Positions 811-41,323 of a stretch of DNA of 64,000 nt are shown here, piece after piece. The notes beneath the pieces are model-generated. The model was not told where the DNA came from. It was given only the letters and a program-made list of their open reading frames with translations, and ran no database searches. Each line of letters starts with the position of its first letter. Positions within the stretch are counted from its first letter, which is position 1. This DNA is from Eledone cirrhosa (Eukaryota). The translations under genes were made by a program, and so were the position numbers. The stretch covers positions 62,001-126,000 of the forward strand of contig CAXHJY010001591.1 in the NCBI GenBank assembly GCA_964016885.1, given 5' to 3'.

Positions 811-860
811 AAATAAAGTTAAATAAAAAATCAAATGATTAAAATTTAGCTTCGTTTATT

Positions 861-915
861 ACTGCTATATATATTTCAGTGACAGCCATCTTTGGCTGTG
901 ACCTCTTCAGGCAGT
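861..915 (-). ncRNA. Type I hammerhead ribozyme (family A, inverted cap copy)
   Basis: Reverse complement of 4736-4790 with one loop difference. Confidence 0.85.
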
Positions 916-1024
916 TTGAATTAGTATGGTATAGTATTGGAGTTAGCTTAAAATTAGTATGGTATAGTATTGGAGTTAGCTTAAAAAATTGATAAAATGG
1001 TAGAAAATTACCAACACACAAAAC

Positions 1025-3525
1025 ATGGAGTACCTTTTTCAATCAAGTAGGAATCCCCCCCACAACAGACTAATGGAGGAGTTTGAAAACGAGATGATTA
1101 ACATCATATCCAACCTCAAATTCTCCGGAAACCCAACCAGAAGTCAGGAGTACCTCAGACACCTGAGAAACCGGATTACAGTACTTAAAGGGACAACTGG
1201 AATACTTGTCCATGCTGACAAAACAAACAACCTCTACAACATGAATACTGAACTGTACAATAAGCTAATCCTCAGGGAACTGAGGAAGTGCTACAAAAAA
1301 CACCTGGATTTACCCTAGATGAGATCAATGCCACAGCTTACAGGATTATATCCAGAATAGGCATAGAGGACAGGGCGGCCCCATACCAACCAAGGGAGCC
1401 GCGGATTACCCTTAAAGACCACAAGCCAAACTTTGAGTCCGACCTCCCTGTCAGACTAATAGCCCCCTCCAGATCTGACCTAGGGATCGTCAGTAAAAGA
1501 ATACTGGATAGAATTTTGCCCAAGCTTCGGAAGAAAACTAAATTACAGCAATGGTCATGCACGGGAGAAGTAATAGAATGGTTTAAAATACTGCATGAGA
1601 AAAGTAGGACCAGCTTTATACAACTGGACATCGCAAGCTACTACTCCTCAATCTCACCCATAGTACTTAATAAGGCCCTATTTTTAGCCATGTCCAATAC
1701 AGACCTAACCCGAGAGGAGGTGAGCATCATCCACGCCGCAAGAAAGACCTTAATCCGCTTCGATGGAGACCTTTGGACCAGGAGTGATTGGCCAAATAAC
1801 TTTGACATCACGATGGGCTCCAGCGACTCAGCGCAGGTAACGGACCTGGTTGGGCTCTACCTGCGGAAGCAGATAAAAGATGAAATCCCCTGCCTGGGCG
1901 GCGGATTATATCGTGACGATGCTCTATTCACAGTATATGACCACAGCACCAATATGTTGGAGGGTATGAGGAGGCGTATTCGCCATTTCTTTAAGAACCA
2001 GGGGCTCAGCATAAAAATAGACCCAAATAGGAAGGTAGTTAACTTCCTAGACACCACCCTAAACCTGAACACCGAGCAATACTACCCCTACCACAAGCCC
2101 AACGAGAAACTTGTATATGTTAAGGCCAAATCAAACCACCCTAGATCCATAACCAAGGCAGTGGTGAAGAGTGTCTCGGAAAGGATCTCCAACCTGTCCG
2201 CAAGTAAGGAAATATTCAATAACCACGCGGAATATTACAACGCAGCTCTAAAGAAGGTGGCACATGGCCATAATATAACATATAGTCCGAAAAGCCGGGA
2301 TGGGGATAGCCCAACAGACATCCACAACCGCGTTGCCCGGGGGGGGGGGACGAACCCTAACAATACAGGCAGAGCAGAATCAAATAGGTACCATGTGCCC
2401 GACACCACCACATGGGCGGTGGGACTAGTGCGTTTGACCACGAGATGGAGCACAATATGAGTAGCAGTCTCAGGCGTGACGCTAACCACCCCAGGACAGA
2501 CGACCCCAACCGCAGGACACGTAGGGGGGCGACCACCCCACGATGGAACTCCCGGGGCGGGCAACGACCACCCCACAAATTCGGGCCGCGAAGATAACAA
2601 AAAGCATAGAGCCCAAAGGGGCAGCAACAGTGCGGAAACCACCAGAAACCCAACAAATCTCCAACAAATCACGACGCCCCCGACCCACACATATAGGAGG
2701 AGACACCGAAAAATCACGTGGTACAACCCAACCTACTCAGCGGCCCTAAAGAAAAGCTTGGCCCGATTATTCTTTAATGCACTTGACAAATGTTTCCCGA
2801 GGGACCATAGATACCACAGGATCTTCAACAGACACACTGTGAAGCTCTCGTATTCCACCACGAGAAATTTGGCCCAACACATAGCTAGCATCAACAGAAG
2901 TAGGCTTAAAAACCACACACAACCAGAAGATGGCAATACAAACACTCAGCAGAACCATGTGAAAGGAGGGAAGGGGGGACCCAGAGCCCACCCAAGAAAC
3001 CCAAACACACCCGAGGACCCCCCACCGAGCCTGGGGGAAGACCAACATGTAACACATAACGGGAACCCTAATCTAGGCACGCAGAAACCGACCACCCTCT
3101 GCAACTGCAGAAACCCCGAATCATGCCCCCTTGGTAATGAATGCCTCAAGAAGAACCTAGTATACGGTTGTAGGGTTAAAACCCCCAACTCCGAACACCT
3201 CTACATAGGAGCCACATCAACGAGCTTTAAAGACCGCTGGTACAACCATCGCCATTCATTCAAGAAGGAGGCCAAAAGGAAAAGCACAGCTCTCTCCGAC
3301 CTGATCTGGAAGCTTAAGCTGGACAGGACCCCATACTCTCTGGCCTGGTACATAATCAGGAAAGTACCACCCGATAAAAGGGGATCTTGCATATGCAAAC
3401 TATGCCTGAACGAGACCCCCGAGATACTAAGAGGTGGAAACGGCCTGATAAACCTCAGAACCGACTTCTTCGGGACATGCAGACACCTTAGAGCCGGGAC
3501 CTTTCTCAAGATATATGGACAGTAG
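1025..3525 (+). pseudogene. Frameshifted PLE RT-GIY-YIG polyprotein
   Basis: HADKTNNLY, FIQLDIASYYSSI, FDITMGSSDSAQVTDLVG, LYRDD, VNFLDTTLNL, CNCRNPESCP, LVY..LYIGAT, CKLC and terminal CRH motifs across ORFs 1025..1318, 1288..2460 and 2476..3525. Confidence 0.9.
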
Positions 3526-3665
3526 CAACACAAGAAGATGTGAACTCCCCTCAAGCTATAGGGACTTCTACAGAACATGGAAACACCTCTCGGCCAGACC
3601 TCCCTCAAGCTATATGGGCAGTAACAACACCCTAGGTTGTGAACTCCCCTCAAGCCATAGGGAAC
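3490..3665 (+). repeat. ~100-bp imperfect tandem duplication spanning the ORF stop
   Basis: ctcaag.tatatgg.cagta.caacac...tgtgaactcccctcaagc.ataggga occurs twice. Confidence 0.75.
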
Positions 3666-39230: not shown

Positions 39231-39238
39231 ATAAATAA

Positions 39239-39303
39239 CATATATTGATGATTGAAAGCAGACGTGTCAAGCTCGTCTGTCTTCATGAAACTTTTGGTAA
39301 ATG
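39239..39303 (+). ncRNA. Possible decayed hammerhead
   Basis: TTGATGA-t[tgaaagcagacg/cgtctgtcttca]t-GAAA...TA; stems I and III are poor. Confidence 0.35.
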
Positions 39304-40067
39304 AAATAATTATATATGTATCTATATGTGTGTGTATATATATATATATATATGTGTGTGTGTGTATATATATCAACTAGAAATTGATTGACATATATAT
39401 ATATATAAAATAAACATACGAAACAATCATTGGGAATAATTTGTAAAGTGTGTGAGCACACACAGCTAGGTAGGTAACTAATTAAAGTTTAACTAGAACT
39501 TCAAATATCGATACCTTTTTAAATGATTAATCTCCTTTGTATATATTTCATTAAAGAAATATATTTCACCATCAATCGGTAAATCACAGTAGTCAAATCC
39601 TGGATTTTCAATAAGTGAGAAGATTTAACTATCTGTATTTACACAGCAAATGCAAATCTATGAATTACTCGTAGCATGTGTTGCATTTTTTAAAAATACA
39701 CACATCGTACCAGCGTCATCCCAGTGGCGTGAATAGGATTATCGACAGCTAGAAATAGCAGCCGAGTCCTTTCAACTGAGTTAGCTCTACAATTAAGGGG
39801 CTGTATATATATCCAAAATTAAATTAAGGGTGCCATGACCGAGAGACATGTGTATATATATGTATATGTGTATATATATATATATGTGTATATGTATATA
39901 TATATGTGTGTATATATATGTATATATATATATGTATATATATGTGTATATATATATATGTATATATATGTGTATATATATGTATGTGTATATATATGTA
40001 TGTGTATATATATGTATATATATATATATGTATATATATGTATATGTATATATATGTATATATATAC

Positions 40068-41323
40068 AGTATTTACGTATCGAGAAAGAGAAAAAAGGGG
40101 AGGATAGGTGATACATATAGTTATTTGCCAAGTAGCGTATGCCAAAGGTGCTCGATACTAGTGCCGGCAGTATTAAATATTCGAAGTGTTAATATTTAGT
40201 GGGCTGGAGAGTTAGCAGAGCGTAAGCACGTGGGAAAGTAAGAAATCCGAAAGTAAGAAGACCGTTAAAACATGTTTATTTAAAACAGCACCTACGTACG
40301 TTTCGCCCAGTTGGGCTTCTCAAGGGCATAAATAATCAAAAGTGTTCCTTATATTGCTCGGAAAGAGTTTTTGGGGTTAAATCCACATCAAGGTTCATTG
40401 CTCGCAAAAATAGCTTGTTTTGATTTTGCAGCAGGTCAAGGGAGGTAACTCTGTCGCGGCAGTTGCAATTTCTGTCGCGGTTCCGTCTATTTCCCACGGT
40501 AAGGCTATCATTGTTGACGCTGCCCCCATAGAGGATACTGCTTGACTGATAGGGTTATATATAGATGCACTATTACTAGCCACAATAGCGTTAAACATTA
40601 TATAGGGGCTACCTCCGGCCCGTTCAAAATTAGGTTTCGAACACATCTCCTCTCTTTCACAAATAGAAAACTAAGGCACTCCACTTCGCTCGCGGACTAC
40701 ATCACATCACTAAAGGACTTAAACATCAGCTTCTCCACGCACTGGGAGATTGTCGGCAGGGCTGCACCGTACAACTTCAAGAGGAAATGCGATATTTGCC
40801 TCATGGAGCTCTACCACATCATAACTGCACCCCACGAGCTCATCAACAGCAGAGCTGAAACAGCCATAAGTTGTACACATCGCTTAAAAATATCCTTCTT
40901 CAGATGGGTTAAGGATGAGGAGTGAAACCGTGCACCGGATCTCCCTGCAACAAGTCTTAACACCCCGGCGGGCAGGCGCTGCAAAATAACACCCAGGAAA
41001 CAATCCTTGCATACCAGACCCAGCCTCAAACGACTCAGAAAAACGGATGCGGCAAAAAAAAAAAAAAAAAATTTGTCTGGGAAAGACTGCCCTAACACCG
41101 GCCAGAGTTACCTCCCTTGACCTGCTGCAAAATCAAAACAAGCTATTTTTGCGAGCAATGAACCTTGATGTGGATTTAACCCCCAAAACTCTTTCCGAGC
41201 AATATAAGGAACACTTTTGATTATTTATGCCCTTGAGAAACCCAACTGGGCGAAACGTACGTAGGTGCTGTTTTAAATAAACATGTTTTAACGGTCTATT
41301 ATCCGATTTCTTACTTTCCCACG
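40068..41323 (+). mobile_element. Heavily 5'-truncated Naiad-type PLE family C: inverted 3' cap 40068-40452, GIY-YIG 40521-40925, 3' end to 41323
   Basis: CPHRGYCL, VIYRC..HYIGATSG.FKIRF..H, CDIC, CTHR; 40228-40452 is inverted at 41104-41323. Confidence 0.9.
41229..41268 (+). ncRNA. Hammerhead, U3-A8 core variant (family C); mirror at 40288-40327(-)
   Basis: GCCC-TTGAGAA-[(g/a)ccc aact gggc]-GAAA-CGTACG-TA-GGTGC; stem I needs a bulge. Confidence 0.7.

What the first reader, a model, noticed from the sequence alone, without database searches (positions are those of the whole stretch)
811..41323. (TA)n-associated Penelope-like insertions capped at both sides by outward-facing ribozyme-bearing 3' ends
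Seen: four unrelated PLE families (811-4930, 13424-17793, 20607-22640, 40068-41323) have an inverted copy of their own hammerhead-containing 3' end at the 5' side, and both ends abut microsatellite or lie within about 30 bp of it. Pure palindromes (7724-8337, 18722-19132) look like the limit case with no body. Known: inverted 5' segments and hammerheads occur in PLEs. Inference: because (TA)n is self-complementary, both strands of a cut can prime reverse transcription, or cDNA folds back. Double-3'-ended, TIR-like insertions would then be a common outcome across both Naiad and Neptune types.
Basis: partly seen in the sequence, partly recalled or inferred. Interest (0 to 1): 0.75.

Follow-up and report, generated by a model that had tools for sequence, protein, structure and literature searches.

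The report
Two-ended Penelope insertions in TA repeats
These mirror-ended jumping-gene copies in TA repeats are real but have an already published shape; what is added is that nearly every such copy pairs one long with one short fixed end, which suggests the element's RNA is likely copied onto both sides of the DNA cut from two set starting points.

Summary
The four window elements are Penelope-like retrotransposons (three with Hydra-clade features, one Neptune; none is a Naiad), each with an inverted hammerhead-bearing 3' arm in (TA)n. This layout, the one-sided 'tail' and the (TA)n bias are published (PMC8557442, PMC3846280).

The arms are not symmetrical. Each of seven families has two fixed 3' ends, short (S) and long (L, S plus a 46-159 nt tail). 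Of 96 inverted insertions with both ends at these sites, 94 pair L with S. Arms of one insertion share a source haplotype. The S arm is often the longer one, which argues against cDNA fold-back after priming at L. In two families an arm stopping at a fixed 5' point is never paired with an arm passing it (0 seen, 11 expected).

Best reading: both cut DNA ends prime on one RNA at the two start sites. (TA)n self-complementarity is not sufficient: a LINE that sits in (TA)n has no caps (0 of 20). The scan has noted this reading before on other DNA, in this genome and others.

The parts
811..1004 (-). Element 1 inverted cap = short-end (S) arm; hammerhead 860-916; internal deletion of about 190 nt and a 33-nt duplication
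1005..4930 (+). Element 1 body = long-end (L) arm; 5'-truncated, broken Hydra-type RT plus C-terminal GIY-YIG ORF; hammerhead 4735-4791; fixed 5' stop T at 4619; S site 4840; tail 4841-4930
7725..8337 (.). Family-4 short palindrome: L arm 7725-8105 (-) with 159-nt tail, S arm 8110-8337 (+)
12066..12469 (.). Copy of the 7725-8337 insertion lacking most of the left arm (L end left, S end right); flanks also match, so likely a local duplication
13424..13719 (-). Element 2 inverted cap = L arm with 91-nt tail 13424-13514; hammerhead core from 13611
13718..17800 (+). Element 2 body = S arm covering a whole 4.1-kb unit and 33 nt of the preceding tail; Hydra-type ORF from about 13802, frameshifted; hammerhead core 17695
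18591..19129 (.). Short palindrome of a young Hydra-type family (F5, 6,657-nt unit with an intact 813-aa ORF elsewhere): L arm 18591-18926 (-), S arm 18927-19129 (+); both arms stop at T
20593..22375 (-). Element 3 body = L arm of a Neptune-type element, 5'-truncated; tail 20593-20640
22375..22640 (+). Element 3 inverted cap = S arm; minimal hammerhead core at 22487
35769..36278 (.). Short palindrome of a non-coding family (F6, tandem unit about 540 nt, hammerhead-like core): S arm left (-), L arm right (+)
40069..40453 (-). Element 4 inverted cap = L arm with 159-nt tail 40069-40228
40454..41325 (+). Element 4 body = S arm, Hydra-type endonuclease end; hammerhead with variant core UUGAGAA near 41233
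10108..11822 (-). Control: LINE fragment (Pfam RVT_1) in (TA)n on both sides, no inverted cap

Best explanation
These are insertions of Penelope-like retrotransposons in (TA)n whose two outward-facing ends are one long and one short fixed 3' end, and they were likely made by both ends of the cut DNA priming reverse transcription on one element RNA at two set start sites. Shown: the two fixed ends per family, their L-with-S pairing, shared haplotypes of the arms, a fixed 5' stop (T) in two families, (TA)n flanks. From the literature (one lizard element in vitro): the protein cuts and extends both strands and starts internally at two sites that bound the tail. Inferred: one subunit of a dimer starts at S and the other at L, usually in the same terminal repeat; the S enzyme runs ahead and the L enzyme follows, displacing or stalling; starts in the 5' repeat run off the RNA's 5' end at T (a likely transcription start) and give the short palindromes; the two cDNAs are joined head to head through 0-17 nt of overlap or a few added bases; copies with one end arise when the second cDNA is very short or lost.
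For: Pairing: 94 of 96 inverted insertions with both ends at defined sites are L+S (F1 14, F2 18, F3 9, F4 13, F5 24, F6 12, F7 4; one L+L, one doubtful S+S; binomial against 0.5 p=6e-26). F6 and F7 were examined after the rule was formed (16 of 16). Single-ended copies use either end. Same source: shared non-consensus bases per kb within vs between insertions 28 vs 7, 13 vs 1.8, 2.0 vs 0.07, 10.8 vs 3.5 (permutation p<=0.0045); in F5 all arms and tandem units agree in haplotype in 8 of 8 informative insertions. Same terminal repeat: stop-at-T never paired with pass-T in 40 F1 and F5 insertions, 11.2 expected (0 of 200,000 permutations). S arm further 5' in 43, L in 19, equal in 20 of 82. T is the A of TTCA in both F1 and F5. 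Raw reads show the head-to-head joint at T (4 reads from 3 starts in X19, 1 read in X20, none in X18, one X1 contig) and 6,241-9,123 reads per run leaving S into (TA)n. PMC11167929.
Against: No single-molecule barcode was found: private shared variants show no A-to-G excess (6 of 56 vs 28 of 328), so one RNA is not separated from two RNAs of one locus. Overlaps up to 5.4 kb need long strand displacement, untested. L arms stop within 16 nt of S in only 6 of 82. The own partner was the nearest arm in only 13 of 49 tests in the older families; part of the sharing is subfamily or age, and arm-to-arm conversion could add to it. Nine inverted arms end at neither site. T was defined from the same data, is not evident in F2-F4, and boundaries were read from BLAST output. 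Target duplications cannot be seen in (TA)n. Samples are the best-scoring hits only.
Confidence: 0.65

Rival explanations
1. Both cut ends prime, one at L and one at S, but on two RNA molecules from the same source locus held by one dimer.
For: Explains L+S pairing and haplotype sharing without kilobases of strand displacement; a dimer is predicted for the lizard protein (PMC11167929).
Against: Must also explain why both arms use the same terminal repeat (0 stop-plus-pass pairs, 11.2 expected), why S tends to run further, and the junctions where an L arm ends at the S site.
Confidence: 0.17
2. Self-priming or fold-back makes a hairpin copy, as proposed for an antisense template in PMC3846280, and the endonuclease then resolves its two ends unequally (tail as resolution mark, PMC8557442).
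For: Published hypothesis; explains identical arms and head-to-head order; some junctions sit in short palindromes (F1 TCATATGA; one F5 junction with a 17-nt overlap).
Against: Fold-back after priming at L needs the S arm nested in the L arm, but S reaches further in 43 of 82. Many F5 centres have 0-2 nt between arms or added bases at T, the presumed 5' end of a sense RNA. In vitro the two sites are RT start sites on sense RNA (PMC11167929). A free hairpin intermediate cut by the endonuclease is not fully excluded by sequence alone.
Confidence: 0.12
3. The self-complementary (TA)n target itself causes double-ended insertion.
For: Nearly all ends touch (TA)n; both S and L sites are followed by TA-like bases that could anneal to the target.
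Against: A LINE in (TA)n on both sides has 0 caps in 20 resolved copies; a GAT-tailed repeat has 0 directly joined caps in 24 loci; the layout occurs with ordinary target duplications in rotifers; symmetry of the target does not predict L+S.
Confidence: 0.05
4. Assembly or library fold-back artefacts.
For: Palindromes next to long microsatellites on an unplaced contig are error-prone.
Against: Arms are unequal by a family-specific tail, differ by 1.2-3.2% in older families, flanks are not mirrored, cases lie on many chromosomes, and opposite-strand joints occur in raw reads of other samples.
Confidence: 0.01

Closest known systems
Endonuclease-bearing PLE insertions with inverted pLTR and one-sided tail (Pen2a_Av, PMC3846280; general scheme in PMC8557442 Fig. 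2 legend)
   Same: Inverted 5'-truncated copy at the 5' side, partial tandems, tail on one end, hammerhead in the terminal repeat, microsatellite bias.
   Different: Tails here are about 46-159 nt, not 30-40; the tail is described there as optional, here it is on exactly one end in 94 of 96; those papers invoke self-priming or endonuclease resolution.
Hydra clade of PLEs (PMC8557442)
   Same: C-terminal endonuclease, RWR/RWK, DKT, CxCx5C linker, no CCHH, CxxC and CxH near the end, hammerhead, (TA)n targets (elements 1, 2, 4, F5).
   Different: Units are 4.1-6.7 kb because of long low-complexity 3' UTRs (published: generally under 3 kb); no tree with reference members was built.
Neptune clade (PMC8557442)
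   Same: Element 3 family: DKG, CX4CxxC linker, two Cys between GIY and YIG, C-terminal endonuclease.
   Different: None seen; phylogeny not tested.
Poseidon of the green anole in vitro (PMC11167929)
   Same: Two internal RT start sites bounding the tail, both strands cut and extended, uncleaved hammerhead RNA as template.
   Different: That study saw no difference in start site between top and bottom strands and did not address pairing within one insertion; target there is ATT, not (TA)n.
L1 twin priming (recalled, no call)
   Same: Two target ends prime on one RNA and give a head-to-head junction with microhomology.
   Different: In L1 the second site is a chance internal match and the arms do not overlap; here both sites are fixed and the arms duplicate the same RNA stretch.

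Membership tests
EN+ Penelope-like elements | Single ORF with PLE-type RT and GIY-YIG endonuclease | tested here: met
   Intact 813-aa ORF in F5 aligns with elements 1, 2, 4; Pfam gave only a weak GIY-YIG hit for element 3 and none for the Hydra-type ORFs, so the call rests on motifs listed in PMC8557442
EN+ Penelope-like elements | Pseudo-LTRs, tandem and inverted insertions, tail | tested here: met
EN+ Penelope-like elements | Hammerhead motif in the terminal repeat | tested here: met
   Clear in element 1, F5, F7; weak folds in elements 2, 3; variant core in element 4; cleavage not testable
Hydra clade | DKT, RWK-like motif, CxCx5C, no CCHH, terminal CxxC and CxH, C-terminal endonuclease | tested here: met
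Hydra clade | Insertion into (TA)n | tested here: met
Hydra clade | Generally shorter than 3 kb (descriptive, not strict) | tested here: not met
   Units of 4.1 kb (F2) and 6.66 kb (F5)
Hydra clade | RT phylogeny with reference members | not tested
Neptune clade | DKG, CX2-5CxxC linker, CCHH, C-terminal endonuclease (element 3) | tested here: met
Naiad clade | N-terminal GIY-YIG endonuclease, no canonical hammerhead | tested here: not met
   All four window elements end in the endonuclease and carry hammerhead motifs
TIR DNA transposons / MITEs | Symmetrical terminal inverted repeats of fixed length | tested here: not met
   Arms are unequal at the outer end and variable at the inner end
L1-type twin priming | Both primers act on one RNA molecule | tested here: inconclusive
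   Same source and same terminal repeat shown; no single-molecule mark

The most novel reading that the evidence does not exclude
Twin priming is the normal, programmed integration route of Penelope-like elements: an asymmetric dimer always loads one cut end at S and the other at L of the same RNA, guided by a short conserved signal (R-C-T-C-Y about 7-12 nt downstream of both sites in the Hydra-type families), so that inverted pLTRs, tails, short palindromes and one-ended copies are all outcomes of one reaction that needs no separate second-strand priming step.
Probability: 0.4. Interest if true: 0.7.

Novelty: new member of a known kind. Interest (0 to 1): 0.42.

Why it matters
How Penelope-like elements form their tandem and inverted structures is named as open in PMC8557442, and the published proposal is self-priming (PMC3846280). 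The L-with-S rule across Hydra and Neptune types, the shared haplotypes and the shared stop point link the two in vitro start sites of PMC11167929 to the two ends of one insertion and give sharp predictions. The young family F5, with near-identical copies, an intact ORF and pristine junctions, is suited to testing them.

Tried and rejected
Rfam scan: swamped by microsatellite matches to miRNA models, no hammerhead among the 150 rows shown of 554. Pfam does not detect the Hydra-type RT. ADAR barcode lead from earlier scan notes: no A-to-G excess in my sample. Sequencing runs: no RNA holder listed, so T could not be tested as a transcription start. Protein atlas did not answer. PMC522041 is not held. 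A search for the U3-A8 hammerhead variant gave no paper I read; that it is a compensatory pair is recalled, and the 3-8 pair itself is in PMC11167929. My first idea that the body always starts at the cap's priming site fits element 2 but not most copies. The inverted pair 19594-19861 / 20235-20473 (79% identity, tail to tail across TA) was rejected as two independent GAT-tailed repeats. No arm boundary was noted at the hammerhead cut site in F1. The recurrent F4 boundaries at reference positions 1222 and 2535-2546 were traced to my reference copies, not to biology.
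Full report
1. Observation. Self-comparison of the masked window confirms inverted arms for all four elements and both palindromes, with outer ends at (TA)n or (CT)n/(TA)n. About 13.8 kb of the window is TA-type microsatellite, so nearly every repeat here touches it; flanking had to be judged from copies elsewhere. The window lies on contig C1618 of a 3.0-Gb animal assembly; 'octopus-like' comes from an earlier scan note and was not checked. 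Hammerheads: element 1 folds as a minimal type I motif (z -3.1). Elements 2 and 3 have the core motifs but folds no better than shuffles. Element 4 has the consensus core UUGAGAA, changed at positions 3 and 8. The 18591-19129 palindrome has a long stem II (z -6.2).

2. Identity. Elements 1, 2, 4 and the family of 18591-19129 (F5) have a C-terminal endonuclease, DKT, RWR/RWK, CxCx5C, no CCHH, and terminal CxxC and CxH, the features given for the Hydra clade (PMC8557442, passages). Element 3's family has DKG, CX4CxxC and two cysteines inside GIY-YIG, that is Neptune. None is a Naiad. No tree was built. F5 is young: 48 of 51 listed matches are full-length at 100%, the tandem unit is 6,657 nt and holds an intact 813-aa ORF.

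3. Two fixed ends. For each family I took the best-scoring genomic matches (40 candidates scored per search, of 62, 1356, 712, 2138, 574, 973 and 1332; 20-30 delivered as loci) and extended unresolved ones. Every family has a short end S and a long end L (tails about 99, 91, 46, 159, 138, 85 and 90 nt for F1-F7). Tallies outside the window, read: F1 14 L+S and 15 one-ended or unresolved of 29; F2 18 L+S (one with its middle not fetched), 1 doubtful S+S, 1 L plus other end, 1 unresolved, 7 one-ended of 28; F3 9 L+S, 1 L+L, 4 with an inverted piece ending elsewhere, 13 one-ended or unresolved of 27; F4 13 L+S, 3 with interrupted inverted arms, 13 one-ended of 29; F5 24 L+S, 1 L plus other, 4 one-ended of 29; F6 12 L+S among 23 loci and F7 4 L+S among 21 loci (the rest one-ended or not extended). 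Thus 94 of 96 with both ends at defined sites are L+S (p=6e-26 against 0.5). All window cases follow the rule. Ninety of 142 insertions of F1-F5 have an inverted arm; this is an overestimate because two-armed copies have two chances to be drawn.

4. Controls. The LINE at 10108-11822 is followed by (TA)n in 30 of 30 loci. Of 29 other copies, 13 are truncated within my reference and all 13 abut (TA)n-type sequence at the 5' side; 7 more have at least 4 kb upstream in hand; none of these 20 has an inverted 3' end; 9 are unresolved. A GAT-tailed repeat (24376-24859) is followed by TA runs in about 11-13 of 24 loci and has no directly joined cap; one has a head-to-head neighbour across microsatellite. 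So (TA)n flanking is not special to these elements, and it is not sufficient for capping.

5. Source of the arms. In F1-F4 the arms of one insertion share non-consensus bases several times more often than arms of different insertions (permutation p 0.0045 or less) and differ by 1.2-3.2% versus 2.6-6.5%. The own partner was nearest in only 13 of 49 tests, so much of this is subfamily structure. In F5, arms and tandem units agree in haplotype in 8 of 8 informative insertions, one more being uninformative, while haplotypes differ between insertions and one is shared by separate loci, which points to source lineages rather than conversion. Private shared variants show no A-to-G excess.

6. Extent of the arms. 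Among 82 L+S insertions (77 genomic, 5 from the window) S reaches further 5' in 43, L in 19, equal in 20. Fold-back of a cDNA primed at L cannot give a longer S arm. In F1 and F5 many arms stop at one point T (window 4619; 18927), the A of TTCA, an initiator-like context (recalled motif). An arm stopping at T is never paired with an arm passing T in 40 insertions, against 11.2 expected; T was defined from these data. L arms end within 16 nt of S in 6 of 82, a weak signal, though two junctions are base-exact. Centres show 0-17 nt overlap or a few added bases. A short R-C-T-C-Y motif lies about 7-12 nt downstream of S and L in the Hydra-type families (seen by eye; not tested against chance).

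7. Raw data. No RNA holder was listed. In DNA reads of runs with the same species label as the best holder, the head-to-head joint at T of F5 appears in X19 (4 reads, 3 starts), X20 (1 read) and one X1 contig, not in X18, and 441-596 reads per run leave L into (TA)n. For F2, 6,241-9,123 reads per run leave S into (TA)n and several opposite-strand joints recur in three runs. These runs are one study; library chimeras can mimic single joints.

8. Mechanism. Best: both cut ends prime on one RNA, one at S and one at L, mostly in the same terminal repeat (0.65). Rivals: two RNAs from one locus (0.17), self-primed hairpin resolved by the endonuclease (0.12), target symmetry alone (0.05), artefact (0.01). 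Shown are the end classes, pairing, haplotypes and stops; dimer roles, strand displacement and T as transcription start are inferred.

9. What is known. PMC8557442 (passages) describes the inverted 5'-truncated copy, the 30-40 bp tail often at one end, (TA)n targets for Hydra, Neptune and Naiad, and calls the mechanism open. PMC3846280 (passages) describes the tail as optional on one inverted pLTR and proposes self-priming on antisense RNA. PMC11167929 (parts 1-3 of 4 of the text) shows cutting and extension of both strands, two internal start sites equal to the tail ends, a predicted dimer, and no strand difference in start site. bioRxiv 10.64898/2026.07.22.740005 and PMC13282606 (passages) add nothing on this. 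Searches found no paper stating obligatory L+S pairing or twin priming for these elements; subscription papers and the supplements of PMC8557442, which may list families of this host group, were not seen. Earlier AI notes of this scan reach the same twin-priming reading in this and other genomes; I formed mine before reading them, and they are not independent support.

10. Verdict. Real, known architecture in new family members; the added value is quantitative support for two-ended priming from two fixed sites. Interest 0.42.

Noticed in passing
L184:575-7231 (G000:C4, family of window 18591-19129): Very young Hydra-type element, 6,657-nt unit, intact 813-aa ORF, 3' UTR of about 3.9 kb rich in TA/TG repeats; single insertions reach about 20 kb with three units and palindromes of 11 kb.
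   Followed up: yes
window 41226-41275 and family consensus: Hammerhead with core UUGAGAA, changed at both positions 3 and 8, likely a compensatory natural variant (recalled); activity untested.
   Followed up: partly
window 18927-19085: Type I hammerhead with a stem II of over 100 nt, starting 7 nt after the fixed 5' stop; missed by short-stem descriptors.
   Followed up: partly
window 35769-36278; L252-L274: Non-coding hammerhead-like family with tandem units of about 540 nt that follows the same L+S rule; resembles a retrozyme.
   Followed up: partly
window 10108-11822; L141-L170: Young LINE family (99-100% identity) that sits in (TA)n at 30 of 30 3' ends, a microsatellite-targeting LINE.
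   Followed up: partly
S and L sites of F1, F2, F4, F5, F6, F7: Short shared motifs: TACTCC/TGCTCC/CGCTCC just downstream of the start sites, and GAGTGCT in the tails of F1, F2 and F7.
   Followed up: no
window 7484-9295, 11823-13421, 39848-41562: Family-4 copies match beyond their ends into the microsatellite flanks, suggesting local duplication; 12066-12469 has lost most of one arm, as expected for an unstable palindrome.
   Followed up: partly
window 27765-28972, 31980-35000, 54806-58514: Several one-ended S copies and rearranged pieces of another Hydra-type family (F7), with internal 60-, 111- and 213-nt tandem repeats.
   Followed up: partly
window 28782-31529, 58593-61055, 63014-63475, 1-277: A further Penelope-like family with C-terminal endonuclease ending in (TA)n, no inverted cap seen in the window; not searched genome-wide.
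   Followed up: no
window 46930-49677: Helitron-like fragment with PIF1-type helicase motifs (label recalled from the translation).
   Followed up: no
window 41758-44013: RTE-like LINE ORF with C-terminal C2H2 zinc fingers (Pfam).
   Followed up: no
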